In this document: positions 21,609-64,000 of the stretch, piece after piece | Layout: each line of letters opens with the position of its first letter | How positions within the stretch are numbered: the stretch's first letter is position 1 | Source of the DNA: a virus | Lineage: Duplodnaviria; Caudoviricetes | DNA: 64,000 nt | IMG/VR virus record: IMGVR_UViG_3300036713_000599 | Reading direction: 5' to 3' (one strand) | Notes under the pieces: model-generated | Seen by the model: the letters and a program-made list of their open reading frames with translations, nothing else | Told to the model about the DNA's origin: nothing | The model's database searches: none | Program-made: the position numbers and the translations under genes

Positions 21609-23608
21609 TGGCAGGCGAACTTGGCGACATCGGCGGCTTCTTTAGGGAAGGCGGGGCCATCAATCTGGATTGGTTGGACGTGGACGAGGAGGAGTACCGG
21701 AAGCTCGATCGGCTTCCGAAGCAAAACCTCGACATTGTTCCTGATCTTGAGGCACAGTGGCGCCATGACGACACGCCCGCTTCCAGGCTTGTTCCGAATA
21801 CAGGGGGACCAAAAACAATGGTGGATCTCGGGCCTTCTGGACCTGTTCGGGAGGTCCCGGAGGATCTTGTCCGCGCGGCCCGTCTTATCATGGTGCGTAC
21901 GCATGACGCGAGGGCCATCTATGCGGCTCTGACTAGTCGATTTGATGCAGACACTCTTAAGCGATCAGCTTCTGTTTTAAGGCCGGTTTTGGCCGAAAGA
22001 GGACTACTCGGTGGTTTGTATGTGTATGCTTCCGATTTTCCGGACTGTGCTAATTCAAATACCAAGAAGTCCTCTGTGTTTGTGCGCAAGTATGCCCCTG
22101 GTGCTAAGTTTGTTATAGCCAAGAAGTCTTGCGTGGAATGTGTCCACAGACAAACCCTCCCTGATCGAACATCTCGCTGTGGTGTTTTTCACAAACAGGT
22201 GCTTGTGAAAGTGCCTTATTCCGATGAGCTTGCGGAATCTGTTGAGAAGTCACAGGAAGCTAAAGGTGTTACGGCTTCAGAGAAGTCGTCTGATCCGAAG
22301 CGTCGTATCCAACTCGCTATTCTAGGGCAGTCGCGTAATGCTTCGACTTTTACAGGTCGGTTGCAGCCTAAGCCCAAGAAACCTCTAGATAAGGTAGCGT
22401 CGGGGCAGATTCTTGCTGCGTCGGCTCAGCTTGCTAAGGAGAAGGAGACCAGTGCGGCGAAAAGTCTTGCTTCCGCTAAGGCCAGGCCTATTATTTCCCT
22501 TCTTCGTCGAGAGATGATCAAGGGTCGTGGTGAGGCGGAACTGGTACATTCTCTTAAACTTGCTTTCGGTAAGGAGGACCTTCAAGCTCTTCGGCATCAG
22601 TGGGAGCCCGTGTATCGTGAGGCTGGACTCTATGGGGCGGTCTATATCACACAAGGTAGTTTTAGTGATTGTCGTGTGGGTGCCGAATTTCTCAGTAAGC
22701 ACAGATCGAAGGTTCGTGCCGTTGTTGCTGGAGATAAGTGTTCCGGTTGTATTTTTGCTAAGGTCGGTCGGTGTCTTATGTACGGGCGTAAGCTTGTTGC
22801 TCGGAAAGAAGACATTCTCACGACTGAGACAGTGGCTGCCGTCATCGACGAGCATAAAATGGCTGGACATTTGCCAGCGTCTGTCGTAGCAGACGGTCAC
22901 CAGAAGTGGGGCTCGTCGCCCGCTGAACAGCTTAAGGCCATTCACAGGGTGGCTACGAATATTCAACCGACTGCTATGGCACCAGGGTTCCGAGGAGCCG
23001 TCGAGAGAGGGTTTTATGGTGGCCCTGGCGAGCAAATGACGAGCGACCTGACCAAGCGTGATATAGTCTTTGCGGCCAAACGGTACATGAACGAGGGGCT
23101 CTACGGTTCACAGTTGGCGACGGTTCTTAAGGGTCGCTTTGAAACTAGAGATCTGGCCGCCGCTAAAGAGGAACTGGCTGAGGCCCTCGCGGAGCAGGGG
23201 CTTCAAGGCATTAAGTACGTTGATCCTTCAGTTTATCCCGATTACGGGCATGGTTGTGCGACGGCTTCTCGATTGCTCCGACCTAGGGCGGCCGTTAAGT
23301 TCGCTAAGGTTGGCTCAGCTTGTGCCAGCTGTGTTCATCAGTCAATGCCGGGCGTGTGCTCTGTGTTGAATAAGCAGCTTGTGGAGGAACCGCCTTATGT
23401 GGATAAAGCTGCTGAACAGAAAGCCGTTTTGGAGTCCGGTAAGTCTACCGAAGTTAGGTTCGACCAGCTCACGCACAACGGCCTCTCTATGATGGAAGAG
23501 TACGAGCTTCAGCGTTCTGCTTCGGCGGCGTATACCATCGATCTGAATGCTCCTGGTGAGGCCCTTGATGTGGACATTGAGTTTGGGAACCAGGAGATTA
23601 AGTTGTGA
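21608..23608 (+). CDS. Protein with three internal Cys4 repeats
   Basis: The unit E.GL.G..Y.....(F/Y).DC ... C..C.(H/F) ... C....K.L occurs three times; start overlaps the upstream TAA (TAATG). Confidence 0.7.
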   Translation: MAGELGDIGGFFREGGAINLDWLDVDEEEYRKLDRLPKQNLDIVPDLEAQWRHDDTPASRLVPNTGGPKTMVDLGPSGPVREVPEDLVRAARLIMVRTHDARAIYAALTSRFDADTLKRSASVLRPVLAERGLLGGLYVYASDFPDCANSNTKKSSVFVRKYAPGAKFVIAKKSCVECVHRQTLPDRTSRCGVFHKQVLVKVPYSDELAESVEKSQEAKGVTASEKSSDPKRRIQLAILGQSRNASTFTGRLQPKPKKPLDKVASGQILAASAQLAKEKETSAAKSLASAKARPIISLLRREMIKGRGEAELVHSLKLAFGKEDLQALRHQWEPVYREAGLYGAVYITQGSFSDCRVGAEFLSKHRSKVRAVVAGDKCSGCIFAKVGRCLMYGRKLVARKEDILTTETVAAVIDEHKMAGHLPASVVADGHQKWGSSPAEQLKAIHRVATNIQPTAMAPGFRGAVERGFYGGPGEQMTSDLTKRDIVFAAKRYMNEGLYGSQLATVLKGRFETRDLAAAKEELAEALAEQGLQGIKYVDPSVYPDYGHGCATASRLLRPRAAVKFAKVGSACASCVHQSMPGVCSVLNKQLVEEPPYVDKAAEQKAVLESGKSTEVRFDQLTHNGLSMMEEYELQRSASAAYTIDLNAPGEALDVDIEFGNQEIKL

Positions 23609-23985
23609 ACAGGATCACGGCTCGTGTCGTAGCTCGTTACCTCCTTGCCGGCCAGCAGCCGGGGCAGCGTCAACGTATTCGTGAAATGGCCAGGCCTATC
23701 AATAAACCGGAAGGTGTTGACCTCAGTGTGATCGAGGACGAGGGTCGGTCTAAAAGTGAGGGAGATGATACCACTAAACCAGACAAGAACGACATAACAC
23801 CGCGAGACTTATTTTATCCGCCGCTTCCTAAGAATACGGGTGTTCGCAATTTCGCTGAAACTGGAAAAGATCTCTCGGATACTACAGGGATCGAGAAAGA
23901 TAAAGGTTACGAGACGGTCGACAGTCTCAGTCAATACTTGATCAGAACAGAGGGTGGGGGAGAAGGTGGGCCGGAAGGGGTGTAG
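23605..23985 (+). CDS. Hypothetical protein with N-terminal RVVARYL leader
   Basis: GTGA overlap with the upstream stop; begins MNRITARVVARYL. Confidence 0.65.
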   Translation: MNRITARVVARYLLAGQQPGQRQRIREMARPINKPEGVDLSVIEDEGRSKSEGDDTTKPDKNDITPRDLFYPPLPKNTGVRNFAETGKDLSDTTGIEKDKGYETVDSLSQYLIRTEGGGEGGPEGV

Positions 23986-23987
23986 CT

Positions 23988-24635
23988 ATGGCAAATACAG
24001 CTATTACTGACGAAAAAGCTAGTGCGATTCTCGACGAACTTGAGGAGGCAGAGGCGTCTGACCCTGTTGAGCCCAGCGAGCATACTAAGCAGGTTGAGAA
24101 AACGGCTGCAGTGGTGCCTATTCAGACGGCCCCCAAGCGACGGAGAATGGCACCCCTCAAGGTGGATCGGCGTCCAGACTGGGATGCTGTCGAATACCAT
24201 CGTGAGATGCTGAAATGTCAGGCGGAGTTGTCCGACAATAGCGAAGTCGTCAAGGCTATCAGAGCGGATGCGTCCTCCCTCACTAAGCTGCGGGCGCTTC
24301 AAGAACAGATTGCTATGGCAGCGTCTAGTTTGGAGTTCCAGCAATGGGAGCTTCAAAAGCGTCGTAGCTCAGCTAAAGACACGGCTCAGATTATATCTCG
24401 GCGTATCTCGGCCCTCAAAGAGGTTGCGAACATTGAGCGAGAGATCTCTCAGTTTAGTGCCTCGACCTTGAATCTTAGGGATGAACGCCTTCAGAGGATT
24501 TTTGCTATGTTCCTTGAGGTGTTCCGTGATATACTGAACGAGACTTTGCCTGATGAACAGTTCGATCTTATCTGGAACAAGCTGGAAACTGCATTGGAGG
24601 GGTGGGAAAATAAGGCCGACGAGATACTGAGGTAG
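23988..24635 (+). CDS. Putative terminase small subunit
   Basis: All-helical 215-aa protein immediately upstream of TerL (positional inference). Confidence 0.5.
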   Translation: MANTAITDEKASAILDELEEAEASDPVEPSEHTKQVEKTAAVVPIQTAPKRRRMAPLKVDRRPDWDAVEYHREMLKCQAELSDNSEVVKAIRADASSLTKLRALQEQIAMAASSLEFQQWELQKRRSSAKDTAQIISRRISALKEVANIEREISQFSASTLNLRDERLQRIFAMFLEVFRDILNETLPDEQFDLIWNKLETALEGWENKADEILR

Positions 24636-24638: not shown

Positions 24639-27600
24639 GTGGTCGAAAAACGCAACAAGGGTGTAGCCTCGTTAGTTCGGACTGTCGGCCGTGAGGCTAA
24701 GCGGTCTCAGTCCAAGGTCGATTCGAGCGGGGCTCCCAAAATATTTTCGATTCTCGACTACATTGAGGCTCCTTGGGGAATTGGTATGAGCCTGTTCCCT
24801 GCCCAGAGGGTCATTGTTAAACTGTACTACAATTTGCCTCTTGACGAGAAATTACCTGAAGAGGACCATCGTCAGATTAAGATACGGGACATGTTCGGTG
24901 AGAAAGTTCTGTACACTCTCACTGAACGTGAGTACTTGACCTATTTGTATAACGAAGGTCGATGTAACATTGGTGAGCAGGACCACATGCGTCGAGAGTT
25001 GGTCCTTGCAGTCGGTCGCCGTAGCGGGAAATGTGTGTGCCATGATTCTTTGGTTTTGACGGACAAAGGGGTGTTCCAAATTGGTGATTTGGCTGAAGCT
25101 CATGAGGATGACTTTTCGTCATTTGATGTGGGAGTGGTCCAAGAGAAAAGTCGTCGAGCCAGGTCTACTCATTTCTATAATGGTGGCGTGAGGCCGATTT
25201 TTTGTGTGAAAAGCGAGTCTGGTTATTCTATTAAGGGTACAGGGAATCATCGCGTCCGAGTCATGTCCAAGTCAGGCCAGGTGGTGTGGAAGTACCTGGA
25301 CGACATCCGACCTGGTGACTATCTAGCGATCAACAGAACTACGGATCTGTGGGCCTCGGATCTTGTGGATCTTAGGCCATTCCATGACGTGGTTGGCTGC
25401 GAGGAATCGAGCCTGCCCGACCTTTTTGATGAAAAGTGGGGCCGCTTTTTTGGCTACTTGGTGGGTGACGGTAGCTGGAACTACAGTGAGAATCCTGAGA
25501 CACGAGAACGTCTCGGTGAGTTGTATGGTACCCTTTTCGGACTCCATTCGACCTGTACGGGTAAGGGGGTGGAGAATGCCAGGTGTGTTCGGTTTGACGG
25601 TGTGTACCAGTTCTTGGCTAGTCTTGGGTGGGTGGCTGGCTGTGAACGACATGCTAGGACGGTTCCTTGGGCAGTTCTTCGTTCTCCGAGGCATGTTGTG
25701 TGTGCCTTTCTGCGAGGGCTTTTTGAGACAGGCGGCTCAGTGGAGAGCGGGGGAAAACGTATTACATTTTCGACGGCTAGTTTTCGCCTAGTCCGTGAAG
25801 TACAGACCCTTCTTTTGAATCTAGGGATTGTTTGCAGTAGGCGGGTTCGTGAGACTGGTGGGTATCGTGCCGTCCTGAGTGTAAAAGGTTTGAGGTCGCG
25901 GCAACGGTTCGCTAAGTTTGTTGGATTTGACTCTAAGAAGAAACAAGACTTGTTGCTCGAAGCTCTTGAGTGCGCCCAGGAAGGGAATCCAGGTACTGTT
26001 GTGCCTCACCAGCACACAAGAGCCCGGGATTTACTGAATTCAGTCCCACGACTTGAGGGCAACAAGTCGTGCAGACGTCGCCATCTTCGACAAGCCCTCG
26101 GTAGTGTGATTGAGCCTGGTTCGGGTGGAGGCTCGACCTACTCTCGGATGTACGCAGTTGTCGAGGTAGCTAAAGAGCAGGGCGCTGGGAGGCGGGAGAT
26201 TGCCCATTTCGAAGAACTGCTTCATCAAGACTATTTTTTCGATCCTGTGGTATCCGTCGAAGAAGGGGAGGATCAGGTATACGATTTGGTTGTACCTGAC
26301 GGGAAGTCTTTTGTGGCAAATGGTCTAACCAACCACAACACAGCCCTTTCCGGTATTTTCGCAAGTTACGAGGTCTACAGGCTACTCAACTTGTACAACC
26401 CTCAGGAGTACTTTGGGCTGCCGAACGGTAACCGTATTCAGCTTATCAGTATTGCTACGGATAAGGACCAGGCAGGGTTGTTGTTCAATGAAGTGACTAG
26501 CCACATAGCGAAATGTGACTATTTTGCTCCCTACCTTGCGAGTAATACACAGGGTTGGGTAAACTTTCGTACACCGTACGACATCGAGAAATACGGCCCA
26601 AATATTCGACAGGAGGACGGTAAGTTTGTATCCCTCAACGGGAAAGCGTCTTTAAGGGTCACGTTCAAATCTTGTATCGCTAAAGGGCTTCGTGGATCGG
26701 GCAACATTGTCATTATTCTCGATGAGGTCGCCCATTTTCTAGACAAGGGCGGTAGCTCTGCAAAAGAGATCTACGAAGCGGTGACACCCTCGAAGGCTGC
26801 TTTTTCTAGGAAGGACCCCAAAACTAAACGTGCGTGGGTCGATCCAGATACAGGCGAGGTGGCCCCTGTTGAGTCCCGAGTTATTTTGATCTCTAGCCCG
26901 CTCGGCAAGTCAGGTAAATTTTACGAGAAGTTCCAACAGGCTATGGGTGGAGGTGAGGGTTCAGAAAATATTCTCGCCATCCAGGCCCCCACTTGGGAGG
27001 TCAACCCTACCGTTCCTTCGAGCGCCTTTCGGGAGGCGTATCACGCTGACCCTCATACGTATGCTACTGAATATGGGGCTAATTTCAGTGATCAGTCTGT
27101 TGGGTGGATTGAGCGGCAGGGAGATCTTCTGGCGTGTGTTGATCCCGAAAGAAGGCCTCTTTTGCGGGGGCGCCCTAGGGCACCTCATCAGATGGGTATC
27201 GATGTTGGGCTTGTGGACGACGGCACTGCTGTCGTCATTACTCATATTGAAGACGACAAGGTTGTCCTCGACTATCACGAGATATGGTATGCGGGAAAGG
27301 ATTGGCGGGAAACAAATCCGCATTTGGGTTCGAACTTTACGACGGATTATGCTAAGACTCTCAGTGACGTGGAGCGTTTGGACTTCGACGCCATTGCTGA
27401 CTGGATCTCTACCCTGTGTTCTCGTTTCCATATCACAGCTGGACTATTCGATCGGTGGAACGGTATTCCACTTGAGCAGACATTGCATAAGCGAGGACTT
27501 AAGCAATTTAATGCCCAATTCTTTACCAGAGACGCCACCTCTAAGCTTTTTCAGACGACCAAACTCATGATGTTTGACGAATGTTTGGATTTTTATGACT

Positions 27601-27956
27601 ATCCTGTCCCGGAGACAGGCCCCGAAGACGAACGGCACTCGGGCCTTATTCGAGAGCTTTTCTCTCTCCAGTCTAAGCAGATCAGTAAGAATGTTGTCGT
27701 CGTGGAGGCCCCGAAGCGGCGTGGGGCACACGATGACATGAGCGATGCTTTAGTCAGAAGTATTTGGTTGAGTGTGGAGGCCATGCTTAACTCCAAGCAT
27801 GCCTCTAGGGGACGTTCCAGTACGAATCGACTTCGTACTGTTTCTGCCATGACTCCGTCAAGATATCAAGCGATTAGGTCGAGACGTCGCGGTAGAGGAG
27901 ATCGTGTAGCTCCGACACCTCGATCGTTTGTCAGGGGAGGTTTTCGTGGCACATAA
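24639..27956 (+). CDS. Terminase large subunit containing an intein
   Basis: After intein removal: Walker A GRRSGK|T, Walker B IVIILDEVAH, ISSP motif, RNase H nuclease MGIDVG and HDDMSDA. Confidence 0.92.
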   Translation: MVEKRNKGVASLVRTVGREAKRSQSKVDSSGAPKIFSILDYIEAPWGIGMSLFPAQRVIVKLYYNLPLDEKLPEEDHRQIKIRDMFGEKVLYTLTEREYLTYLYNEGRCNIGEQDHMRRELVLAVGRRSGKCVCHDSLVLTDKGVFQIGDLAEAHEDDFSSFDVGVVQEKSRRARSTHFYNGGVRPIFCVKSESGYSIKGTGNHRVRVMSKSGQVVWKYLDDIRPGDYLAINRTTDLWASDLVDLRPFHDVVGCEESSLPDLFDEKWGRFFGYLVGDGSWNYSENPETRERLGELYGTLFGLHSTCTGKGVENARCVRFDGVYQFLASLGWVAGCERHARTVPWAVLRSPRHVVCAFLRGLFETGGSVESGGKRITFSTASFRLVREVQTLLLNLGIVCSRRVRETGGYRAVLSVKGLRSRQRFAKFVGFDSKKKQDLLLEALECAQEGNPGTVVPHQHTRARDLLNSVPRLEGNKSCRRRHLRQALGSVIEPGSGGGSTYSRMYAVVEVAKEQGAGRREIAHFEELLHQDYFFDPVVSVEEGEDQVYDLVVPDGKSFVANGLTNHNTALSGIFASYEVYRLLNLYNPQEYFGLPNGNRIQLISIATDKDQAGLLFNEVTSHIAKCDYFAPYLASNTQGWVNFRTPYDIEKYGPNIRQEDGKFVSLNGKASLRVTFKSCIAKGLRGSGNIVIILDEVAHFLDKGGSSAKEIYEAVTPSKAAFSRKDPKTKRAWVDPDTGEVAPVESRVILISSPLGKSGKFYEKFQQAMGGGEGSENILAIQAPTWEVNPTVPSSAFREAYHADPHTYATEYGANFSDQSVGWIERQGDLLACVDPERRPLLRGRPRAPHQMGIDVGLVDDGTAVVITHIEDDKVVLDYHEIWYAGKDWRETNPHLGSNFTTDYAKTLSDVERLDFDAIADWISTLCSRFHITAGLFDRWNGIPLEQTLHKRGLKQFNAQFFTRDATSKLFQTTKLMMFDECLDFYDYPVPETGPEDERHSGLIRELFSLQSKQISKNVVVVEAPKRRGAHDDMSDALVRSIWLSVEAMLNSKHASRGRSSTNRLRTVSAMTPSRYQAIRSRRRGRGDRVAPTPRSFVRGGFRGT
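25032..26339 (+). mobile_element. Intein (436 aa) with LAGLIDADG endonuclease domain, inserted in the TerL Walker A
   Basis: Begins CVCHDSLV directly after GRRSGK; block B TGNHRV; LAGLIDADG-like GYLVGDG and FLRGLFETGG; ends VYDLVV...FVANGLTNHN with Thr at +1. Confidence 0.93.
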
Positions 27957-29221: not shown

Positions 29222-29685
29222 TGTTGCGTAGGCCACAAGATCGTGCACACACACTCCAGGAAAAAGAAGACTTCGATCGTCGGCAGGCGAGGGAGATCCA
29301 GTCAGAAATAATCGAAATTCAGAAGATTCGGGGCGAACTGGAGTCCCTTGCTACCAGGCTGCAGGAGCAGTGCGACAGGTTGCGGACCCGTGTGCGCCTG
29401 ACTGCCAGCCTTGATGCGAATCCTGTGGTCACATACACGAACGCGAATATTCGTATGGCAGGCGTGGTTCTCCAGGTGTCGAGGCGTACGGCTTCCTTAG
29501 ATAGGGTTCTAAGGATTGGCGAGGCCGAGAAACGCGAGCAAGAACGGTTGGACGCTCAGAGACAGAGGCGCGAAGAACGGGTACTGCGAGAGGCTGAGAA
29601 CAGCCGAAGAATACAGGGGTCAGGCAACGACTTCGAGGAGTTGTTCGGAGACTTCGATTACGAGGAGGGCGTGAGTGATGCCTGA
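29221..29685 (+). CDS. Coiled-coil hypothetical protein
   Basis: ATG overlaps the upstream TGA; heptad-rich; RLTASL and RRTASL sites. Confidence 0.55.
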   Translation: MLRRPQDRAHTLQEKEDFDRRQAREIQSEIIEIQKIRGELESLATRLQEQCDRLRTRVRLTASLDANPVVTYTNANIRMAGVVLQVSRRTASLDRVLRIGEAEKREQERLDAQRQRREERVLREAENSRRIQGSGNDFEELFGDFDYEEGVSDA

Positions 29686-31489
29686 TAACCCATACACCAA
29701 CGCAAGCCACACTCCCCGGTACTCTGCACAGACTAGGGTTCGGGCGACTCCTCAGGCACAGCCGTACGTGGCTCAGAAGTTCTCAAGTCAACTCACACCC
29801 AAGGAACGTTTGGCACGGCAACAGGCTAGGACGGCGAACTGTTTTGGTGGTGGGGGCTATTCCGGTGGAGGGATGGGCATGAACACCACCATGAGCGGAA
29901 ACAACAACTTCTTCTCTGTTCAGCTTTCAACAGACTTTTTGGAGCTGCCTCAATCTATTCGCGAGTGGCGGGAAATTTACCGTCATTTTTATAACAACGA
30001 CGAGATTGTAGGGCAGGCCATAGACCTACATACAGAACTTCCGCTTTCCAAGGTCCGGCTCACTCCTCCGAAGCCTCGCACGTGCCCTGAAGGTTTTGAG
30101 AATCCTCATGATTACGCTAAATACATCCTCAGTAGATTTCAGCGGATGTGTGACCGTGTTCGCCTTTTCAGTAACCTGATCACAATCGTCCACCATTATT
30201 GGTTGGACGGGGTCACGGCGATCTTTGCGGAAGATGGTGTTGTTGACGTACCTCAGGATATAGGGTACAGTTCACAAAAGAAGGTGAAATCCGTTCTGCT
30301 GGATGACGGCACACCTGTCGAGCAAGAGGAGTATGTTTGGGTTGAGAGATCAGACAAAGAAGACCAGGAATTAGCTTACTACCAGAAGCACTATCAAGGG
30401 TGGGAGAAGTTGATAGTGCTTCCGATCGATCAGGTCAAGATTACGACCTTTTCCTTCACGAATAAGACTAAGATGGAACTGATTCCTTCCGATCGCGATC
30501 GTCGTTTGGTTGAGCAGGCGTACGCAGGGGATCCGACAGCGGAGGAAGTACTTCAAGAGATCCCGGAAGAAGTTCGAGCACATATCGAGCAAAACCAGCT
30601 CATTCCTCTTGGGACTGACCCCGACGAAGGTAGCTTTGTGTACCTGCTCTCTGGCCGTAAGGGTGCCGACGATGAGCTAGGACAGAGTATCCTTCGGCGA
30701 TGTATGCGGACGTTGTTGTACAGAGACAAGCTTCGCCAGGCTCAGACGAGCATCGCTTCTCGGGCGATGACTCCGAAAAGGGTTGTGTGGGCGGAGGGCT
30801 TGAGTGACACCGACGTCGAGGATCTTCGTGAGCAGGTCGATTTGTCGTTGGTTGATCCTGATTACACTATTGTCGCTAACTACGAGATTCATTGGGAGGA
30901 GATGGGGGCTCGTGACCGTCTTCTGGACTTGAGTGTGGAGTATGAGCAAACAGAAAGACGGCTCATTACTGGGTTGGGTGTCACTGAGTCCCTTATGAGC
31001 GGAGAATCTCTCTACAGTGGTGACCGTGTGAAGTTGGAAGTTATCAACCAGCGGTATCTCCATCTACGTGATCGGGTCCAGGAGTATGTCGAGGACTTTC
31101 TCTTTAAGCCAGTGGCTAGACGGATGGGGTTTGTCGAGAAGGATAAGTGGGGCCAGGAAGTCATACTGTACCCTAAGTTAAGCTTCACTCGCCAACCACT
31201 CCGAGACAGCCAGGATTATTTTGACGCTATCTTTAACATGTACCAGAAGGGCTCGATCAGTGTGGATCTTGTGCTTGAGGCTCTCGGTATCGATCCGGAC
31301 GATACTCGCGTCAAGCTCGAAGAGGACATGCTTACGGTCAATGACGCCACCTTTAATGAGGTCCTGCGGGGCGTTTATTCTGAGGTTGGTCGTATGATCC
31401 CTGAGAAGACTGACGTGGTTGACAGGGTTGCCAAGTATATGGACCTGAAGATGAAAGAGGCCGGGGAGGAAGAAGGCGGTCGATACTGA
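29678..31489 (+). CDS. Portal protein
   Basis: ~600 aa between TerL and the protease; YRHFYNNDEIVGQAIDLHTELP, EKLIVLPIDQVKI, GQSILRRC..L..KLRQAQ..IA, LITGLGV follow the portal helical pattern. Confidence 0.8.
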   Translation: MPDNPYTNASHTPRYSAQTRVRATPQAQPYVAQKFSSQLTPKERLARQQARTANCFGGGGYSGGGMGMNTTMSGNNNFFSVQLSTDFLELPQSIREWREIYRHFYNNDEIVGQAIDLHTELPLSKVRLTPPKPRTCPEGFENPHDYAKYILSRFQRMCDRVRLFSNLITIVHHYWLDGVTAIFAEDGVVDVPQDIGYSSQKKVKSVLLDDGTPVEQEEYVWVERSDKEDQELAYYQKHYQGWEKLIVLPIDQVKITTFSFTNKTKMELIPSDRDRRLVEQAYAGDPTAEEVLQEIPEEVRAHIEQNQLIPLGTDPDEGSFVYLLSGRKGADDELGQSILRRCMRTLLYRDKLRQAQTSIASRAMTPKRVVWAEGLSDTDVEDLREQVDLSLVDPDYTIVANYEIHWEEMGARDRLLDLSVEYEQTERRLITGLGVTESLMSGESLYSGDRVKLEVINQRYLHLRDRVQEYVEDFLFKPVARRMGFVEKDKWGQEVILYPKLSFTRQPLRDSQDYFDAIFNMYQKGSISVDLVLEALGIDPDDTRVKLEEDMLTVNDATFNEVLRGVYSEVGRMIPEKTDVVDRVAKYMDLKMKEAGEEEGGRY

Positions 31490-31510: not shown

Positions 31511-32506
31511 ATGATGGATCTCAGGGCAAAGAAGACGGAGTCGGAACGAGAGGACGAAGAAGCGGAGCGTTTAATCCGCGAAAGCCCTAAGCAGAGGCCC
31601 CCTCGTCGTGACCGACGGCGAGAGCGTATGGATACTTCTGAGGGAGACAAAGACAGAGATCTTAGCCTCAATTACAAAGATGTGGGTGGTTCTGCCTGTG
31701 TGGTTCGCCATTTCGTAAATTCTACTTATCTGAGGGGGTTGGCGATGGGACGTAGATTAGAGAGAGATGCTGTATACCACGGGGTCGCACCTTATAAGGA
31801 GGACCCCGGCCCTTATCCAGGGTGGGGGCCTGCCCACCAGAGGGATATAGGGGAAAGGGATTTTCAGATTATTCTGAAGAGCGCAGAGAATTGGCTACAG
31901 GCTCCGGTGCTCTCTCGTCACATTGAGGGGATGTTGCCGGACACCAGACTTCGTGCGGCTCTCGACCTTGCTATTCAGGCAAGTCCTTATAATCGTGCCA
32001 TCAACCCTCAAAGATACAACATGCTCCTCTCTCGGTTGGCGGAGCGTTTTGAAGAAAAAACGGATACTCGGGAAGCTAGATCTACTTGTACCCTGCCTTC
32101 TGGTAGGGTCAGTGCAGGTAACCCACAGGAGACTGATGCAATGACAACCAAGCTTTCGGCTGAACAAAGCAAGACGGCAAGTGGCATTTTGACCAAGCTC
32201 GATGAGACTGCAAAGGAGATTCAGGCTTCCTATGAGAAGCTTGGGTTGCCCCTCAAAGATGCAAAAAAGATGGTCAATGCGCTCGATCGTATTGCCGACG
32301 ACTTTGAAATCAATGCTTTTGGCGAAGAGTCTTGGGAAAACCGTCGCCAGGAAATTGAAGACAAGACCGCTGCTGTGTATCAGCGTGACCCTGATGAGTC
32401 TTATATGGATACATTCCAGAACCCTCATCAGCCTCACCAAGTGGACGCCGACGAGCCCTATATGGATGCTTTTTCGGACGACGACTCTTGGTCTGAGGGT
32501 GAGTGA
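31511..32506 (+). CDS. Hypothetical head-region protein with internal in-frame SD+ATG starts
   Basis: 331-aa ORF; in-frame ATGs at 31745 and 32141 each have a properly spaced SD-like sequence. Confidence 0.6.
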   Translation: MMDLRAKKTESEREDEEAERLIRESPKQRPPRRDRRRERMDTSEGDKDRDLSLNYKDVGGSACVVRHFVNSTYLRGLAMGRRLERDAVYHGVAPYKEDPGPYPGWGPAHQRDIGERDFQIILKSAENWLQAPVLSRHIEGMLPDTRLRAALDLAIQASPYNRAINPQRYNMLLSRLAERFEEKTDTREARSTCTLPSGRVSAGNPQETDAMTTKLSAEQSKTASGILTKLDETAKEIQASYEKLGLPLKDAKKMVNALDRIADDFEINAFGEESWENRRQEIEDKTAAVYQRDPDESYMDTFQNPHQPHQVDADEPYMDAFSDDDSWSEGE

Positions 32507-32536: not shown

Positions 32537-33244
32537 ATGACGATTGACTATTGGCAACTCGCAAAGGACTTCGCTGCAGGTGACATAGTGCAGCGGCTTC
32601 TTCCGGGGCAAGGTATCTCGCCCTTCTCTGGTCGTGTCCTCGCATCCTTACCTGGTTTAGGTGTCGTGGACGTCCAATGGCCTTACGGTTCGGAGAGAGT
32701 TTTTTCCGATGAGCTGCTGAAGGTAGACCCTCGTTTTGGTTACTACCTGCCCCCTACTCTTACTTTTGATTATTTTCCTGGGCTGGATGTTGTTAAACAG
32801 GCGTCCGTGAACAAGTGGCGGACTACTGAGGTGCCTGCAGGATTCCACAAGGAACTAGCTCGGTTATTTAGTAGAGGGTCAAACGAGATTCAGGCGTACA
32901 ATGAGTTGTGGCATCGTTACGCATCATATTCTCATGATGATGCACTGCGAGACGAGGTCGACAAATTTTACCGCTTTGCTTCCAATACTCTCGATCTGTA
33001 TCTTCAGGCGACTGTTGCTAAGACAGCTACCTATTGGATGGCCCAGAATCGGCAACACCGGGCCACGCGTAAAGAGCTATTGGCAAAGTGCCCTAACTGC
33101 CCTCGCTGTGGCACGGCTATGCGTCGCACTACGTACAAGATGCGAGAGGGGCAGAAGATGCGCCTTTTTGCGTGCCCTGTGGATCTCTTCATTATAAAGA
33201 GGGGTGACATTTTTGGGCCCGACGGTAATCCCGTGGAGTGGTAA
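32537..33244 (+). CDS. Hypothetical protein: SH3-like N-domain plus C-terminal Zn ribbon
   Basis: GDIVQ...GRV...VDVQWPYGSERV; C-terminal CPNCPRCG...FACP. Confidence 0.6.
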   Translation: MTIDYWQLAKDFAAGDIVQRLLPGQGISPFSGRVLASLPGLGVVDVQWPYGSERVFSDELLKVDPRFGYYLPPTLTFDYFPGLDVVKQASVNKWRTTEVPAGFHKELARLFSRGSNEIQAYNELWHRYASYSHDDALRDEVDKFYRFASNTLDLYLQATVAKTATYWMAQNRQHRATRKELLAKCPNCPRCGTAMRRTTYKMREGQKMRLFACPVDLFIIKRGDIFGPDGNPVEW

Positions 33245-33245
33245 T

Positions 33246-34721
33246 ATGGCTTTTTCGAAGTACGCCAACGCAGCTGTTGTTAAGCCTGCCATCACCATGG
33301 ATGCGTGGGACACGGTTCGAGCTAATGCAATGCAGCTCGGACCCGCTTTTGGTGCCCGAAAGTCTTCTGGGGCTGTACTTCAAAAATTCCATCCTGACCA
33401 ATATTTACTCAGCCATTGTACTATCATAGCCTCTGTGGACACAGAGGAACCCTCTGATGTCAAGCTAGGGGCTCAGATGGTAGATGGTTTCCAGATCAAC
33501 CGTAAGTACGGCGACTACCTAATCACTCCTGAGACAAGTCCTTGGATTAACAATAATTTTGATAGCTGGGAAAGAAAACTTTTGCTCGCAACATACCCCA
33601 CTTTTACTGGTGGTGAAAACTATGTTGAGCACTTACAGATTCCTGAGTTATCTAAAGGTAAGATCTTAGATGCTGCAGCACGGGACATTGGAGACTCTAT
33701 ATACGTCGACATCCTTGTAGCTACGAGTCGTAAACACCGCCCCTTGATTGAGGCGGTAGAGTCTGGTGAGCTTCAGACACTGTCGATGGGCGCACGGGTA
33801 GCATTTACCATTTGCTCTAAGTGCGGGAATGTTGCTGCTGACGAGACTGAACTGTGTCAGCACATCAAGTACCAGAAAGGTAACAACTTTACTGACGAGC
33901 TAGGTAAGGTCCGAAAGATTGCTGAGATCTGCGGACACGTGACAGCAGAGCCCGGAAGTGTTGAATTCGTAGAAGCTTCTTGGGTTGCTAACCCCGCCTT
34001 TACAGGTGCTGTTCTTCGCAACATCCTCGCTCCTGACCAGATAAAGGCTCTTGGATCCCGTGCTCAGGTAGCCTTCTCTCGTCTTCCTGGGGTTGTGGAC
34101 AATGATTCGATGCGGCGAGTCGCGAGTCTTGCTTTTGACCTCGGTGACCAAGGCCAGGATCAAGAAGAACCTGTGCCGAAGCCTCAGAAAGATCTTTTAG
34201 AAGAAGCTGTTGGTGATGTCGCGGACTATCTCCGAGAGCAGGCATTGAAAAAGGTTCGTGAGGAGATGGGTGGAGGGGAAGTCCCGGAAGCTGATCTCCA
34301 GGAAAACCTCAATGAGACTCTAGTGAAGGAAGCCACGTCTAGTCCCCAGTGGTGTGCCATATCTAAAGCTGTGGTCACTAAACTAGGATCGGGACCGTTG
34401 ACTAGACGTATTTTGTTCGGCTTTCTTTTATACCGTCGTGGTGGTTGGAAGTGTGTTCAAGCTGCCAAAAAGCTTAAGGGTGTGGACTTTCTAGCTATGT
34501 CTCGATTCATCGATTCATTCCAAGGCGTTCCTAAGATCGCAGGAGAGTCTCGTTTGTATCGTGCTGTCGTCGCTGTAGGCGGGTATGCACCATACGAAGA
34601 TGAAAAGAGCTATTTGGCCGCGTGTCGTCGAGTACTAGGTAGGGAATTAATGAGGTCCGAGCAGGACACTCTGTTGGCTAAGGGGAGATTGTACGACCTT
34701 GGGGCTCCCGGGATGTCGTGA
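33246..34721 (+). CDS. Prohead (capsid maturation) serine protease with Zn-finger insertion
   Basis: NNNFD, NYVEHLQ (His), YVDILVAT, TLSMG (Ser), CSKCGN..LCQH insert, EFVEASWVANPAF; located between portal and scaffold. Confidence 0.82.
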   Translation: MAFSKYANAAVVKPAITMDAWDTVRANAMQLGPAFGARKSSGAVLQKFHPDQYLLSHCTIIASVDTEEPSDVKLGAQMVDGFQINRKYGDYLITPETSPWINNNFDSWERKLLLATYPTFTGGENYVEHLQIPELSKGKILDAAARDIGDSIYVDILVATSRKHRPLIEAVESGELQTLSMGARVAFTICSKCGNVAADETELCQHIKYQKGNNFTDELGKVRKIAEICGHVTAEPGSVEFVEASWVANPAFTGAVLRNILAPDQIKALGSRAQVAFSRLPGVVDNDSMRRVASLAFDLGDQGQDQEEPVPKPQKDLLEEAVGDVADYLREQALKKVREEMGGGEVPEADLQENLNETLVKEATSSPQWCAISKAVVTKLGSGPLTRRILFGFLLYRRGGWKCVQAAKKLKGVDFLAMSRFIDSFQGVPKIAGESRLYRAVVAVGGYAPYEDEKSYLAACRRVLGRELMRSEQDTLLAKGRLYDLGAPGMS

Positions 34722-34761: not shown

Positions 34762-35889
34762 ATGCGTAAGCGTACCACTTGGGTTTCATCGAAGGGAGCT
34801 TCCGAAAAGAAGGCAGAAGATCCCCGTGCCATGAACCAGGACCATTTGCAGCAGCAGCCGTCGGCTGACAAGTATACGATAGGCGGCCCATCAGAGTTTG
34901 CTGAGGACGTACATCCGTCTGCTGACACCTGGGAATCAGAGGACGAGGGTGGTGAGACTAAGCGGAATGAAATAGGGATGCCCGAGTTCCGTGACGACAC
35001 TTTCAAGCACGCTGGCGTCGACATGGAGACTCTGTACAAGAAGGGTAATATATGTCTCCGTGTTGCCCGCCACATGCTCCCGTCTGCAGATGATGAGACC
35101 CTTGAGTTCCAGGCTGCTGCTTTGATGCACCTTCCTGATCAGGACCTGGTTGAAACCGTTGGTCGTATTCAAACGGCCGGAAAGGTCCCGCCCGAGTTTC
35201 TTGAGCAGCAGGAGAAGATGAAGGAAAAGGCCGAGGACAAGAAGGAAGAAAAAGAAGAAAAGGCGGACAAGAAGGAAGCTTCTGAAAACGTAGAGCCTGA
35301 GCAGGTTGCGGAAGAAGAGACGGAAGAAGAGAAGGAAGAAGAAGAGAAGGAAGAAGAAGAGAAGGCTCAGGACAAGGAAGCTTCTTGCGGGCAGATGTTC
35401 TCAATGGAGCAGATGCAGGAGATGGTGAACCAGGCTGTCCAGGCCAAGATGGACGCCATGCAGGCGCCCGCCTCACAGATGTCTGAAGTCCAGAGCGATG
35501 AGGAAATCCTCGATCAAATGCTTCAGGACGACTTGGAGCCTGCCCAGACCTCTGAGATGGACCTTCAACTTGAAGGTGCTCCGATGAATATCGACGAGGT
35601 CCAATTTGACCAGGATGAGAGCGACGTCCTCTCGTCTTTGTTCGCGAACCACTCTGAAGTTCTTCAGGCCCAACAGGCCCAGACCCTTCAGGGCGGTGTT
35701 CCGGTAGTTCCTGTTGCACTTCCTGTAACAAAGAATGCTTCTACTCGGACGGTCGGCACACGACCGTCCGGCGGTGTTTCACAGATCGGTGGGGCAGGTG
35801 CTTCCGCTGAGACAAACAGCAACGATGTCGACTCCTTGTCTAGTATGTGGAAGTCGGCTCCTGATGTATCTGGCGTCTTTAACCCCTAA
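34762..35889 (+). CDS. Putative capsid scaffolding protein
   Basis: Very acidic, E/K low-complexity protein between the protease and the decoration/MCP genes; SD AGGAAAGGT. Confidence 0.65.
   Translation: MRKRTTWVSSKGASEKKAEDPRAMNQDHLQQQPSADKYTIGGPSEFAEDVHPSADTWESEDEGGETKRNEIGMPEFRDDTFKHAGVDMETLYKKGNICLRVARHMLPSADDETLEFQAAALMHLPDQDLVETVGRIQTAGKVPPEFLEQQEKMKEKAEDKKEEKEEKADKKEASENVEPEQVAEEETEEEKEEEEKEEEEKAQDKEASCGQMFSMEQMQEMVNQAVQAKMDAMQAPASQMSEVQSDEEILDQMLQDDLEPAQTSEMDLQLEGAPMNIDEVQFDQDESDVLSSLFANHSEVLQAQQAQTLQGGVPVVPVALPVTKNASTRTVGTRPSGGVSQIGGAGASAETNSNDVDSLSSMWKSAPDVSGVFNP
35311..35367 (+). repeat. Coding tandem repeat (GAAGAAGAGAAGGAA)n
   Basis: About three 15-nt copies encoding EEEKE in the scaffold gene. 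Confidence 0.7.
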
Positions 35890-36634: not shown

Positions 36635-37516
36635 ATGAACCAGCAAATCAGTAACGAGCAAAAACAAAAGGTCATCTCGGAGTACATCAAAACAGCAGCC
36701 GGTCGTGCGAAGCTTGCAGCTTCTATGATCCAGCCGCTCCGTCTTCGTCGTGACTACACGGCCGTAGGCCGCAAGACGTTCGCCGTCGAAAGCTTGCCGG
36801 ACGCGGCACTCCCCATTTACGACAAGGACCCTGAGGTCACCGCATTCGTCGTGGGCGAAGAAGGCGAGAACGTTCTTGCTATTCAAAAGTCCCGCCGCGT
36901 CATCTTCTCTTTGTTCGAGATCGCTTCGAACCCTGAGATTCCGTTCACTCAGGTCAAGGAGCGCCGCTTCGATTTGATTGAACGTTCTCAGGATCTTGCC
37001 AAGGCCCAGATTCAGGCTGCCGAAGATGAGCGAGTATTCGCTGTCCTTGATAGCATCGCTGTCTCTGGCTTCGACAACCTTCCGGGTCAGACTAACCCTG
37101 ACATTGCTGTTGTTGCTCCTATCTCCCCGAGCGTCCTCGCTGATGCTTTTGCTGAGATAGAACGTCACGACCTGCGTGTCGCCCGCATCTATATGAATGC
37201 GGTTGACTATGCTGATATCCGGAAGTTCGGACGGGATGTTCTCGACATCGAATCACAGGCAACTCTCCTGAAGACTGGTCTCCAGGCCACCTTGTGGGGG
37301 GCGCAAATCATCACCAGTCGCTTGGTTCCGGCCGGTTACGTGTATGCGTGCGCGGAAGCCGAAAACTTCGGCCGCTTCCCTGTTCGTACGGAACTTACGG
37401 TCCTTTCTGCCGACGACCCGAAGACCAGGACTATCGGGTTCTCCTGCTTCGAGAATGTTGGGATCGGGGCGTTCAATCCTCGTGGGTTGACCCGCATGGT
37501 TGTCACCCGTTTCTAG
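36635..37516 (+). CDS. Major capsid protein (short HK97-fold type)
   Basis: Position after protease/scaffold/decoration genes; strong SD AGGAGA; followed by a terminator; helix/E-loop/P-domain-like pattern (FDLIERSQDLAK..IQAAEDERVF, RIYMNAVDYADI, LWGAQIITSRLVPAG). Confidence 0.85.
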   Translation: MNQQISNEQKQKVISEYIKTAAGRAKLAASMIQPLRLRRDYTAVGRKTFAVESLPDAALPIYDKDPEVTAFVVGEEGENVLAIQKSRRVIFSLFEIASNPEIPFTQVKERRFDLIERSQDLAKAQIQAAEDERVFAVLDSIAVSGFDNLPGQTNPDIAVVAPISPSVLADAFAEIERHDLRVARIYMNAVDYADIRKFGRDVLDIESQATLLKTGLQATLWGAQIITSRLVPAGYVYACAEAENFGRFPVRTELTVLSADDPKTRTIGFSCFENVGIGAFNPRGLTRMVVTRF

Positions 37517-37662: not shown

Positions 37663-38154
37663 ATGAACGACTTAGCACGAAGAGTAGCTATTCGGTACCG
37701 GCAAAAAGGTAAAGCTCGCAAGCAGCGGGTCAAACAGTACCGCCGAAACAAAGCTAAGAGCAAGACACAGAATCGCCATTGGCGTCTCAAGAACAAAATG
37801 CAGGTCAAAAGGTACCGCCAAAAGCGAGAGCGGAACCCTCACATGCATGAGCTTAGACGACGGTCGGCGGGTATCATGTTTGACCCTGTGGCCCTTCTTC
37901 CCATACACTTTTGGGACACGAAGGGGGAATTTTCAGGGCAGGTGCGCTCGGTCGCTGTTGACGGAACCTTTATTGACACCATGGTGGACGGGAAACTTAG
38001 GACGTACGACACAGAAGATTTCATGGTGACGTGTGTTGTGATTGATGAGGGAGCCGAGAGAACTTTGTTTGACGTTCTGGATGAGATTCATGGGATTGAT
38101 GCCGAACAAGATGTTTCAGAGTTGATCGATCTTGAGGAAGACATCGAGGACTGA
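37663..38154 (+). CDS. Hypothetical protein with K/R-rich N-half and acidic C-half
   Basis: Starts MNDLARRVAIRY, followed by ~50 aa very rich in K/R. Confidence 0.6.
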   Translation: MNDLARRVAIRYRQKGKARKQRVKQYRRNKAKSKTQNRHWRLKNKMQVKRYRQKRERNPHMHELRRRSAGIMFDPVALLPIHFWDTKGEFSGQVRSVAVDGTFIDTMVDGKLRTYDTEDFMVTCVVIDEGAERTLFDVLDEIHGIDAEQDVSELIDLEEDIED

Positions 38155-62936: not shown

Positions 62937-62942
62937 CGAGCC

Positions 62943-63809
62943 ATGGCAAACCTCGATGCGGCAGGGACAGCAACAGGGACTACGACCCTTTTGGGGACTG
63001 TTGCGATTTTTGTTGCTGTTTCAGGGTTAGCCTCGGGCCAGGCGGTCGTTTCAGGTGATGTGTGGCCTCAGGGGGCTGGGGTAGCCTTAGGCTCTTCTAC
63101 GGTCGTTGGAGCGGCAGCAGTCATATACAACGTTTCCGCTAGTGTTCAGGGAGAGGCTACCGTTACGGCTTCTGTTGGCCGAATTCAGATTGTCACGGGC
63201 CAACTCCAGGGGTCGGGTACTCTTGAAGCCGATCTGACTACGACTGTTGCCGGAACGGCTACAGGTTCGTCGTTGATGACGGGATCGGCTTTTCGGACTA
63301 TCAACGCCAAGGGGTTGATTCTTGGCCGCGGTGAGTTCAAGTGGGTGGGGGCACCTTTGCCTGTCTACGGGTCTTCGACAATGGTTGGATTTCCCATTGT
63401 TGAGTCCCGTGCTCCAGCGGTATGGGCCGTTGTGTGTTCTCCTAAGCAATTCCGGTACCGCCAGTTATTGCAGCGTGGGGACTTGCCGATCTTTATTTGC
63501 GATAGAGCTGGTCCCGTTTCTCCTGTATGGGTTCGGTACACCATGTACCACATCTTGCGTTGTGGTGCCCGTCGCAGAATAGGGCCGGCTAGGAGAGTTC
63601 CCGTGTCGGGGAAGGTGGGTGAGTTCTACGTGTCTGGTAGGGCGGGTGATCTTGGGCAGCCAGGGTCATGGCTCGTCTTGTGGGAGTGGCGGTATGGGCA
63701 TACCTCGGCGACTCAGAGTAAGGAAATGCAGTTTGAGGTGCTCGATGCTGTCTTGGCCGACTGCCCTCGGGACACCACAGTTAGGCATCGAAAGTACGGG
63801 TGGAGCTGA
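62943..63809 (+). CDS. Structural protein with G/A/T/V repeats
   Basis: N-half made of A.G.A.G.(S/A)...G repeats; follows the 62550 gene. Confidence 0.65.
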   Translation: MANLDAAGTATGTTTLLGTVAIFVAVSGLASGQAVVSGDVWPQGAGVALGSSTVVGAAAVIYNVSASVQGEATVTASVGRIQIVTGQLQGSGTLEADLTTTVAGTATGSSLMTGSAFRTINAKGLILGRGEFKWVGAPLPVYGSSTMVGFPIVESRAPAVWAVVCSPKQFRYRQLLQRGDLPIFICDRAGPVSPVWVRYTMYHILRCGARRRIGPARRVPVSGKVGEFYVSGRAGDLGQPGSWLVLWEWRYGHTSATQSKEMQFEVLDAVLADCPRDTTVRHRKYGWS

Positions 63810-64000
63810 TGAACTTAACGAGGCGTGTTGTTGCTCGATACCTTGGGGCTCTGACTAAGAGAGATCTCCCTCCAGCTTTTCGTGAGGAGTGGGGACGGTT
63901 CGTTCAGCGAATAGGTGGGTCAGACGGTGACTTTGAGGTCGTTGTTTCGATCCCTTCGGAAGCCTTAGACAAAAAGTTTGGGGGTGCTCCTGACAAGATG
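63809..64000 (+). CDS. Partial ORF with N-terminal RRVVARYL leader (runs off the window)
   Basis: TGATG overlap at 63807-63811; translates MNLTRRVVARYLGALTKRDLPPAFREEWG..., open to 64000; not in the supplied ORF track. Confidence 0.7.
   Translation, partial: MNLTRRVVARYLGALTKRDLPPAFREEWGRFVQRIGGSDGDFEVVVSIPSEALDKKFGGAPDKM

What the first reader, a model, noticed from the sequence alone, without database searches (positions are those of the whole stretch)
23605..64000. Shared N-terminal leader MNxxxRV(V/A)xRY on three unrelated proteins: candidate capsid-targeting signal
Seen: MNRITARVVARYL (23605), MNDLARRVAIRY (37663) and MNLTRRVVARYL (63809); downstream sequences are unrelated. A similar internal helix LRVARHML occurs in the scaffold. 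Known: T4 internal proteins carry a ~10-aa capsid targeting sequence removed by the prohead protease, and encapsulin cargos use short targeting peptides. Inference: an address peptide that loads diverse cargo into the prohead and, with the K/R-x-A sites, forms a 'tag and cleave' packaging system. It could be useful for engineered capsid loading.
Basis: partly seen in the sequence, partly recalled or inferred. Interest (0 to 1): 0.72.

Follow-up and report, generated by a model that had tools for sequence, protein, structure and literature searches.

The report
Portable RVxxRY docking tag, huge phage
Three unrelated small proteins in this piece of an uncultured huge phage (and a fourth elsewhere in its genome) start with the same 10-12-residue peptide, a tag that related phages attach to either end of many different enzymes; it most likely docks them to one shared receptor, either the assembling phage head or the phages' own ClpX unfoldase, and no experiment yet says which.

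Summary
Three ORFs (23605, 37663, 63809) start with [LI]-x-x-R-V-[VA]-x-R-Y, and a fourth lies outside the window. Chance expects 0.017 such N-termini; four are seen (P about 4e-9). Codons differ synonymously and the downstream sequences are unrelated.

The record is a roughly 50%-complete huge phage. In about 500 related viral contigs the tag sits at N-termini, C-termini or inside unrelated proteins: type IB topoisomerase (either or both ends), HExxH peptidase, 2H phosphoesterase and DnaJ proteins. It is therefore portable.

Two contexts recur:
- The conserved protein encoded between the portal and head-protease genes carries the tag in most relatives. The window's carriers lie next to the terminase and capsid genes and among tail genes.
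- In eight larger relatives, tag-coding hits are 10-fold enriched within 2 kb of a phage clpX gene. The tag core (L-R-V-A) also resembles the SspB peptide (A-L-R-V-V-K) that docks on the ClpX N-domain.

My reading is a shared docking tag. Head loading is most likely (about 0.4) and a ClpX tether is a close rival (about 0.3). The "tag and cleave" part and the scaffold look-alike are not supported. The scan noted this tag before on other DNA (e1-5373604, e1-5410371). I found no paper describing it.

The parts
23605..23985 (+). Carrier A: 126-aa acidic protein (pI 5.1) of no known family. GTG start overlaps the stop of the upstream 680-aa gene. Lies two genes upstream of the large terminase.
   Evidence: A syntenic orthologue that keeps the tag is in L143, and L107 holds a tagged homologue.
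23614..23649 (+). Tag copy in A: ITARVVARYLLA (residues 4-15)
   Evidence: 25.3 bits in the position-matrix scan; coordinates
37663..38154 (+). Carrier B: 163-aa protein directly downstream of the major capsid gene. After the tag, the N-terminal half is very basic (pI 12.0) and the C-terminal half acidic (pI 4.05).
   Evidence: Homologues in L015 and L016; the L016 copy keeps a tag, IAQRVASRW.
37672..37707 (+). Tag copy in B: LARRVAIRYRQK (residues 4-15)
   Evidence: 26.1 bits
63809..64000 (+). Carrier C: 112-aa basic protein whose start overlaps the stop of the upstream gene. It lies in the tail-fibre/connector block and runs about 147 nt beyond the window end. No relatives found.
63815..63850 (+). 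Tag copy in C: LTRRVVARYLGA (residues 3-14)
   Evidence: 27.3 bits
31511..32506 (+). Post-portal head-module protein (331 aa). Its orthologues (314-1412 aa) carry the tag after the conserved '...KPPRRDRRRE...DLSLNYKxVGGS', and often a second copy before the conserved C-terminal domain, bracketing a hypervariable insert.
   Evidence: no Pfam, PHROG or PDB-fold match
31691..31729 (+). Degenerate tag in the window's own post-portal protein: SACVVRHFVNSTY (first Arg replaced by Cys, second by His)
24639..27956 (+). Context: large terminase (1105 aa)
   Evidence: phrog_17415, E 3.9e-29
29675..31489 (+). Context: portal protein
   Evidence: phrog_16240, E 3.1e-27
33204..34721 (+). Context: head maturation protease (505 aa)
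   Evidence: phrog_18299, E 1e-10
34762..35889 (+). Context: acidic scaffold-like protein. Its conserved helix at 35050-35079 is not the tag.
36635..37516 (+). Context: major capsid protein (293 aa), about 90% identical across about 500 viral contigs of up to 529 kb
   Evidence: phrog_2522, E 1.5e-50

Best explanation
The peptide [LIM]-[AST]-x-R-V-[AV]-x-R-[YF]-[LQK]-x-A is a portable docking tag. It lies in flexible ends of proteins, outside their folded parts, and lets many unrelated proteins of one clade of huge phages bind the same receptor. For the carriers in this window, the most likely receptor is a component of the assembling head (the scaffold or core, or the inner capsid wall). On this reading the tagged proteins are loaded into the prohead as cargo and probably leave with the DNA, as T4 internal proteins do. 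Shown: the tag is non-random, acts at the protein level, is clade-wide and is portable, and it has a conserved copy in a head-module gene. Inferred: that it binds anything, which receptor it binds, that carriers are packaged, and that they are ejected. Nothing indicates that the tag is cut off.
For: 1. The tag is real and portable. In this genome there are four N-termini against 0.017 expected, well separated in score from noise. Residues not used in the search pattern are also enriched: [LMI] at -3, Ala at -2, +3 and +8. In relatives it heads 31 unrelated N-termini. It also occurs at C-termini, internally and in tandem. Type IB topoisomerase orthologues carry it at the N-end, the C-end or both. 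In an AlphaFold model of one of them both tagged ends lie outside the folded core, with pLDDT below 50.
2. It is restricted to this clade. A scan of all viral contigs for the canonical coding pattern gave 14 hits. Seven are true tags, all on contigs of this huge-phage clade or on 400-kb-class contigs, and the other seven look like chance.
3. There is a head link. The protein encoded between portal and prohead protease carries the tag at a fixed place in most of about 30 distinct orthologues, often twice, bracketing a hypervariable insert. The window's copy is degenerate.
4. The window's carriers are co-oriented with late genes. A and C overlap the stop codon of the upstream gene. A lies beside the terminase, a position kept in L143. 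B lies directly after the capsid gene. C lies among tail-fibre and connector-like genes. In 16 of 70 relatives the stretch after the capsid gene holds different small tagged ORFs.
5. The payloads are enzymes: topoisomerase IB, an HExxH peptidase, a 2H phosphoesterase, a J-domain protein. They resemble the enzyme domains of proteins that phages inject with their DNA (PMC7824862).
6. There is a precedent. T-even internal proteins share only a capsid targeting sequence that puts them into the scaffolding core (PMC3012670).
Against: There are no virion proteomics, and no binding has been shown. The strict coding pattern is not enriched around the capsid gene in eight larger relatives (7 hits within 10 kb against 5.4 expected), whereas it is 10-fold enriched next to clpX. 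Carrier D lies in a two-component-system operon, not among structural genes. J-domain proteins are not typical head cargo. Unlike the T4 sequence, the tag is not confined to N-termini, and no cleavage motif follows it. The tag core resembles a ClpX-docking peptide (PMC3983244, PMC7226468).
Confidence: 0.4

Rival explanations
1. ClpX tether. [quoted passage not shown] The carriers would then be substrates whose lifetime is controlled, adaptors that bring other proteins to ClpX, or partner enzymes; ClpX would unfold them, degrade them together with host ClpP, or remodel them.
For: All ten larger clade records examined (58-100% complete by CheckV) encode a ClpX with the zf-C4_ClpX domain. The protein is full length, with Walker A, GYVG pore loop and LGF ClpP-docking loop, and matches solved ClpX at E 9e-101. 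Tagged genes sit directly beside clpX, often on both sides, and the payloads differ between genomes. In eight genomes 11 pattern hits lie within 2 kb of clpX against 1.06 expected (P about 2e-8), and 15 within 3.5 kb against 1.86. Two contigs with a more distant ClpX that scores below the cut-off for the zinc domain have no tags. In relatives the tag core is L-R-V-A. The SspB peptide that binds the ClpX N-domain is RGGRPALRVVK (PMC3983244). A published consensus for peptides bound by that domain is L-K-x-h, and the domain is proposed to bind a helix of RssB (PMC7226468). Known ClpX signals occur at either terminus. The orthologue of carrier D lies 1 kb from clpX in G004. In this genome D lies between two single-domain response regulators next to a PAS histidine kinase, and RssB, a ClpX adaptor, belongs to the response-regulator family (PMC7226468).
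Against: No clpX was found in this record, but the record is only about 50% complete and lacks the whole syntenic region. The four tags of this genome have Ala or Arg, not Leu, before the first Arg. This reading gives no reason for two tag copies bracketing the insert of a conserved head-module protein, nor for carriers co-transcribed with terminase, capsid and tail genes. The genomes are related, so the adjacency counts are not independent. The zinc domain is rather variable between genomes while the tag is nearly invariant. The likeness to XB covers only 4-5 residues.
Confidence: 0.3
2. Another shared hub or self-association. The tag binds some other phage or host protein (for example a replication or chaperone hub), or tagged proteins bind each other to form one assembly.
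For: A portable, exposed, conserved peptide needs a partner, but none has been shown. Payloads include DNA enzymes and a J-domain protein. Tags often come in tandem and tagged genes come in clusters.
Against: No candidate hub recurs next to tagged genes other than clpX and the head module. Nothing in the data points to a specific third partner.
Confidence: 0.17
3. Not a tag. The shared N-terminus is the remnant of one ancestral small protein family whose remaining sequence has diverged beyond recognition, or a nucleotide-level element at gene starts.
For: Some carriers do share more than the tag. These include a 'tag + ...YLxEHPxADxSKH' module and a 'tag + KxxDTGxxVxV' module that also occur in the post-portal protein.
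Against: The same tag sits at the N-end, the C-end or both ends of orthologous topoisomerases, and on Pfam families that exist widely without it. Codons vary synonymously. The tag lies outside the folded core.
Confidence: 0.04
4. Export signal (twin-arginine type), suggested by the R-R in two of the leaders.
For: T-R-R-V-V and A-R-R-V-A resemble the start of a Tat motif.
Against: No hydrophobic region and no A-x-A site follow; charged residues come directly after the tag. Two of the four tags have a single Arg, and the tag also occurs at C-termini.
Confidence: 0.01

Closest known systems
Capsid targeting sequence (CTS) of phage T4 internal proteins IPI-III and Alt
   Same: A short shared peptide on otherwise unrelated, fast-evolving proteins. 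Carrier genes are scattered, while head-core genes between portal and protease share the feature. Its function is loading into the scaffolding core (PMC3012670).
   Different: There is no sequence likeness. The tag here is not confined to the N-terminus (it also occurs at C-termini, internally and in tandem). No protease site follows it. Packaging is not shown. The capsid protein here is a 293-aa HK97-type protein, not gp23-like.
XB (ClpX-binding) peptide of the SspB adaptor and related N-domain docking motifs (UmuD, RssB)
   Same: A short exposed peptide on a flexible end. The core L-R-V-[VA] is close to A-L-R-V-V-K, and to the L-K-x-h consensus (PMC3983244, PMC7226468). Carrier genes cluster around a clpX gene with the zinc-binding domain.
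   Different: The tag is longer and has a second invariant Arg and an aromatic residue that XB lacks. Tags in this window lack the Leu. It is used on dozens of payloads, including a head-module protein. Binding is untested.
Encapsulin cargo-loading peptides and microcompartment encapsulation peptides
   Same: Short peptides at either terminus, joined by a flexible linker, that dock diverse cargo to the inside of a protein shell; encapsulin shells are HK97-fold like phage capsids (own knowledge).
   Different: The sequence is different. The shell here is a true phage capsid with portal, protease, scaffold and terminase genes. No shell binding is shown.
Polyvalent / MuF-type proteins encoded next to the portal gene and injected with phage DNA (Iyer et al. 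2017, as cited in PMC7824862)
   Same: The post-portal gene has a conserved frame and a hypervariable insert. The payload types (peptidase, nucleotide-signal or RNA phosphoesterase, DNA enzymes) are similar.
   Different: No MuF or other Pfam domain was detected in the post-portal protein. Here most payloads are separate small genes that share a tag rather than domains of one giant protein.

Membership tests
T4-type capsid targeting sequence | Located at the extreme N-terminus of the carrier | tested here: not met
   It is N-terminal in all four carriers of this genome. In relatives it also occurs at C-termini, internally and in tandem.
T4-type capsid targeting sequence | Ends in, or is followed by, the prohead-protease cleavage motif and is removed | tested here: inconclusive
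   No conserved motif follows the tag in 31 aligned N-termini. The specificity of this phage's protease is unknown.
T4-type capsid targeting sequence | Sequence similarity to the T4 CTS | tested here: not met
   The consensus [LIM]-A-x-R-V-A-A-R-[YF] has two invariant Arg. From my own knowledge, the T4 CTS is a hydrophobic/acidic peptide ending in L-x-E.
T4-type capsid targeting sequence | Carriers are present in proheads or virions; the tag is sufficient to encapsidate a foreign protein | not testable with these tools
   The phages are uncultured and no proteomics is at hand.
T4-type capsid targeting sequence | Head-core proteins encoded between portal and protease share the feature | tested here: met
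   The post-portal protein carries the tag in most orthologues.
ClpX N-domain docking (XB-like) peptide | Core L-[RK]-x-small hydrophobic residue in an exposed, flexible segment | tested here: inconclusive
   Many tags of relatives fit (L-R-V-A). The four tags of this genome have A/R-R-V-V/A, without the Leu. The tagged ends are unstructured in a model.
ClpX N-domain docking (XB-like) peptide | A ClpX with the zinc-binding N-domain is available to read it | tested here: inconclusive
   Present in all 10 larger clade records examined. Not found in this record, which is about 50% complete and lacks the syntenic region. Host ClpX is unknown.
ClpX N-domain docking (XB-like) peptide | Functional link between carriers and ClpX, tested here by the proxy of conserved gene neighbourhood | tested here: met
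   11 hits within 2 kb of clpX against 1.06 expected in eight genomes; also seen in L165-L167.
ClpX N-domain docking (XB-like) peptide | Direct binding to the N-domain; competition with XB | not testable with these tools
Twin-arginine (Tat) signal peptide | R-R motif followed by a hydrophobic stretch and an A-x-A site | tested here: not met
   Charged residues follow the tag and there is no hydrophobic region.

The most novel reading that the evidence does not exclude
One tag, two readers. The tag would be read both by the prohead and by the phage's own ClpX N-domain. Either ClpX unfolds or hands over tagged cargo for loading into the head, which would be an ATP-driven protein-loading step, as was once speculated in general terms for phage ClpX/ClpA (PMC7824862). 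Or ClpX destroys the tagged effectors that were not sequestered in heads. The post-portal protein with tags bracketing a hypervariable insert would be the ancestral cargo cassette.
Probability: 0.12. Interest if true: 0.9.

Novelty: new variant of a known kind. Interest (0 to 1): 0.62.

Why it matters
If the tag is an address label, a simple sequence rule predicts a whole functional class of proteins (head cargo or ClpX clients) in hundreds of uncultured 240-530-kb phages whose genes are otherwise mostly unannotatable. It also points to the enzymes these phages deliver or regulate: topoisomerase IB, zinc peptidases, 2H phosphoesterases, J-proteins. A 12-residue peptide that works at either end of a protein would be a handy tool for loading proteins into capsids or for programmable turnover. 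The clpX link is a concrete, testable alternative that the capsid reading had not faced.

Tried and rejected
- Complex prediction of the tag (36 aa, alignment A2) with the capsid protein (A4) plus the scaffold N-terminal 150 residues (A1) returned no verdict. It is not used for or against any binding, and the single job is spent.
- Pfam, PHROGs and the ESM Atlas on carriers A-D found nothing usable.
- The fold of the window's post-portal protein had mean pLDDT 68 and no PDB match. Pfam on seven large orthologues found nothing.
- Megablast of 16.5 kb of the window against GenBank phages gave no match.
- No relatives of carrier C were found in the viral contigs or in five large genomes.
- Attempts to reach more distant capsid-protein clades failed, so I could not test whether the tag tracks the head module or clpX. 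Contigs from the look-up of encoding contigs were too short, and scans with distant homologues or a distant alignment found nothing.
- Five fragments closest to this phage have no clpX, but they are only 20-32% complete and so uninformative.
- ClpP is encoded in only one of five records, so a phage ClpXP pair is not general.
- The idea that the roughly 1000-aa tagged ORFs upstream of the capsid gene were terminases was rejected: they do not match this phage's terminase region and are post-portal proteins.
- The helical nature of the tag was not confirmed. The AlphaFold model, built from only 3 sequences, leaves it as low-confidence coil.
- Three literature searches for a description of such a tag found none.


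Full report
**What is in the window**

The window is C1:72097-136096 of a single 240,951-bp viral record. CheckV rates the record about 50% complete. Almost all genes from 61.6 kb onward are on the + strand. The window holds a classical head module:
- large terminase, 24639-27956
- portal, 29675-31489
- a 331-aa protein, 31511-32506
- a 235-aa protein with a C-terminal Cys cluster, 32537-33244
- head maturation protease, 33204-34721
- an acidic scaffold-like protein, 34762-35889
- a 207-aa protein in the position of lambda D
- a 293-aa HK97-type major capsid protein, 36635-37516

Tail-fibre-like genes follow further on. The capsid protein is about 90% identical in 498 IMG/VR contigs of up to 529 kb. 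It has 1365 representative relatives in the large protein library. There is no nucleotide match to GenBank phages.

**The observation**

The first starts with GTG. A six-frame scan of the whole record found a fourth carrier (D) on the minus strand at 57809-57531.

The regex R[VI][VA]xR[YF] is expected 0.017 times in the N-terminal windows of 263 genes and occurs four times (P = 3.8e-9). A position matrix built from relatives scores the four at 25-27 bits. Everything else in the genome, and the reversed matrix, stays at 18 bits or below. Two borderline N-termini (MSDQTKRVISHFL and MSEQVERVIRKYA) lie in the left arm.

The Arg and Val codons differ between copies, so selection acts on the peptide, not on DNA or RNA. 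The rest of the four proteins is unrelated. They are small proteins of no known family. B has a pI-12 N-terminal half and a pI-4 C-terminal half.

**The tag across the clade**

The same peptide heads many different ORFs in loci around the capsid gene of 80 relatives and in five large genomes. It also appears at C-termini, internally and in tandem.

Positions that were not part of the search pattern are enriched as well. This gives the consensus [LMI]-A-x-R-V-[AV]-A-R-[YF]-[LQK]-[QEA]-A. Thirty-one aligned N-termini share nothing after about residue +8.

The payloads fall into about 35 BLAST clusters. They include:
- type IB topoisomerase
- DnaJ-domain proteins
- a 2H phosphoesterase
- DUF5661
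- a family with an HELGHR...ENFAE zincin signature

Orthologous topoisomerases carry the tag at the N-end, the C-end or both, in various states of decay. In an AlphaFold model the catalytic core folds (pTM 0.63), while both tagged ends stay at pLDDT below 50. The tag is therefore a portable add-on outside the fold. Its helical nature is my inference from the i, i+4, i+8 spacing of Leu, Val and Tyr, and the model does not confirm it.

A scan of all IMG/VR for the canonical coding pattern gave only 14 hits. Seven are true tags, all on contigs of this clade or on 400-kb-class contigs. One of them is a syntenic orthologue of carrier A next to the terminase. The other seven look like chance.

**Evidence for a head connection**

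ORFs of about 1000-1400 aa upstream of the capsid gene in relatives carry the tag about 70 residues from their start. They are not terminases. They are long versions of the window's 331-aa post-portal protein, with a large variable insert between its conserved N-terminal 60 residues and its C-terminal domain.

In about 30 distinct orthologues the tag follows the conserved '...KPPRRDRRRE...DLSLNYKxVGGS'. A second copy often precedes the C-terminal domain. The window's copy is degenerate, reading SACVVRHFVNSTY.

Carriers A and C overlap the stop codon of the upstream gene, in the packaging and tail blocks. B follows the capsid gene. In 16 of 70 relatives the stretch after the capsid gene holds assorted small tagged ORFs.

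This layout recalls T4. There, head-core genes lie between portal and protease, and diverse internal proteins share only a capsid targeting sequence that places them in the scaffolding core (PMC3012670). The payload types recall the enzyme domains of proteins injected with phage DNA (PMC7824862).

**Evidence for a ClpX connection**

This evidence is new here. While looking at the orthologue of carrier D in G004, I found it 1 kb from a gene with a ClpX-type zinc finger, among other tagged genes.

All ten larger clade records examined encode such a ClpX. It is a complete ClpX, with the zinc-binding domain, Walker A, GYVG loop and LGF loop. It matches solved ClpX at E 9e-101, and the G004 copy is interrupted by an intein-like insert. 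ClpP is encoded in only one of five records.

In G002-G005 clpX lies in a conserved block between a CN-hydrolase-like gene and a 'PYSLSRWTD' gene. One to four tagged genes flank it directly, and their payloads differ between genomes. The same holds in three further contigs whose ClpX is only about 50% identical.

| Region, eight genomes | Pattern hits seen | Expected | Enrichment | P |
|---|---|---|---|---|
| Within 2 kb of clpX | 11 | 1.06 | 10-fold | about 2e-8 |
| Within 10 kb of the capsid gene | 7 | 5.4 | none | not significant |

These counts cover 101 strict pattern hits in 3.04 Mb. The genomes are related, so the P value overstates independence.

The tag core in these relatives, A/S/T-L-R-V-A, resembles the SspB XB peptide RGGRPALRVVK, which binds the ClpX N-domain (PMC3983244). 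It also fits the L-K-x-h consensus reported for peptides bound by that domain, which is proposed to bind a helix of RssB (PMC7226468).

In this genome D lies in an operon of a PAS histidine kinase and two single-domain response regulators. RssB, a ClpX adaptor, is a response-regulator family member (PMC7226468).

This record has no clpX. It also lacks the entire syntenic region, and half the genome is missing.

**Weighing the two readings**

Each reading explains what the other leaves open.
- Head loading explains the conserved, doubled tag in the post-portal protein, the position of the window's carriers and the effector-like payloads. It does not explain the tight clustering around clpX.
- A ClpX tether explains the clustering, the likeness to XB and the use of either terminus. 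It does not explain the head-module copy. The tags of this window also lack the Leu that matters in XB.

I put head loading at about 0.4, a ClpX tether at about 0.3, another hub or self-association at about 0.17, and the rest on minor rivals. A combined model, in which ClpX acts on head cargo, is the most novel reading not excluded, at about 0.12. A general form of this idea was floated for phage ClpX/ClpA in PMC7824862.

No motif follows the tag, and many copies are C-terminal or internal.

**Known or new**

I found no paper describing this tag. The scan itself had noted the same RVAxRY tag in another phage of about 350 kb (e1-5373604). It had also noted heavy tagging of proteins encoded between portal and protease in related phages (e1-5410371). 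I reached both points independently from the sequences. The clpX association was not in the summaries of those notes.

In kind, this is a new variant of known address peptides: the T4 CTS, encapsulin and microcompartment targeting peptides, and ClpX docking motifs.

Noticed in passing
G000:C1 56000-59500 (L002), outside the window: The phage encodes a two-component system: a PAS histidine kinase (365 aa) and two single-domain response regulators, with the tagged 92-aa protein D between the regulators.
   Followed up: partly
L127:61-2385 (G004 280061-282386): The phage clpX gene of one relative is interrupted inside the Walker A motif by an intein-like insert of about 345 aa (GPSG-C...HN-TGKT).
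   Followed up: no
window 31511-32506 and orthologues, e.g. L033:1052-4741 and L029:180-4388: The post-portal protein ranges from 314 to 1412 aa through a hypervariable insert between conserved ends. No Pfam domain was found in the inserts.
   Followed up: partly
window 24639-27956: The large terminase is unusually long (1105 aa). The terminase match covers only residues about 340-955, so the N-terminal third is unexplained.
   Followed up: no
window 28188-28709 and 28709-29221: Two adjacent genes of about 170 aa are clear paralogues (shared ...FKKGDAYTVAV...WVGGQG...GSDEDGD.YT...) just upstream of the portal.
   Followed up: no
L082:4921-7875 and L068:1891-3537: In some relatives the prohead protease and the scaffold are one fused ORF (985 aa in L082); in this window they are separate genes.
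   Followed up: no
window 32537-33244 and 40558-41412: Two conserved head-region proteins have small Cys-rich motifs: a C-terminal CPNCPRC...C cluster in the first and a SWIM zinc finger hit in the second. In some relatives orthologues of the second carry an internal tag-like R-I-A-A-R-F.
   Followed up: partly
G000:C1 about 37760-37800 and 31200-31240 (+ strand, outside the window): Two further N-termini (MSDQTKRVISHFL and MSEQVERVIRKYA) score 17 bits, at noise level, but have the right spacing from the start codon. They may be decayed tags.
   Followed up: no
L069:2552-2986, L091:664-1542:-, L099:1087-1533:-, L007:2342-5128: A recurrent two-part module: the tag followed within about 10-20 residues by ...YL(K/H)EHPxADxSKHTV. 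It is found both in small proteins and in the post-portal protein.
   Followed up: partly
L158-L160 and G004 271-291 kb: The clpX block of relatives lies beside genes that by their N-terminal sequences look like thymidylate synthase, dihydrofolate reductase and a CN-hydrolase (not run against a family library). None of this region is present in the window's record.
   Followed up: no
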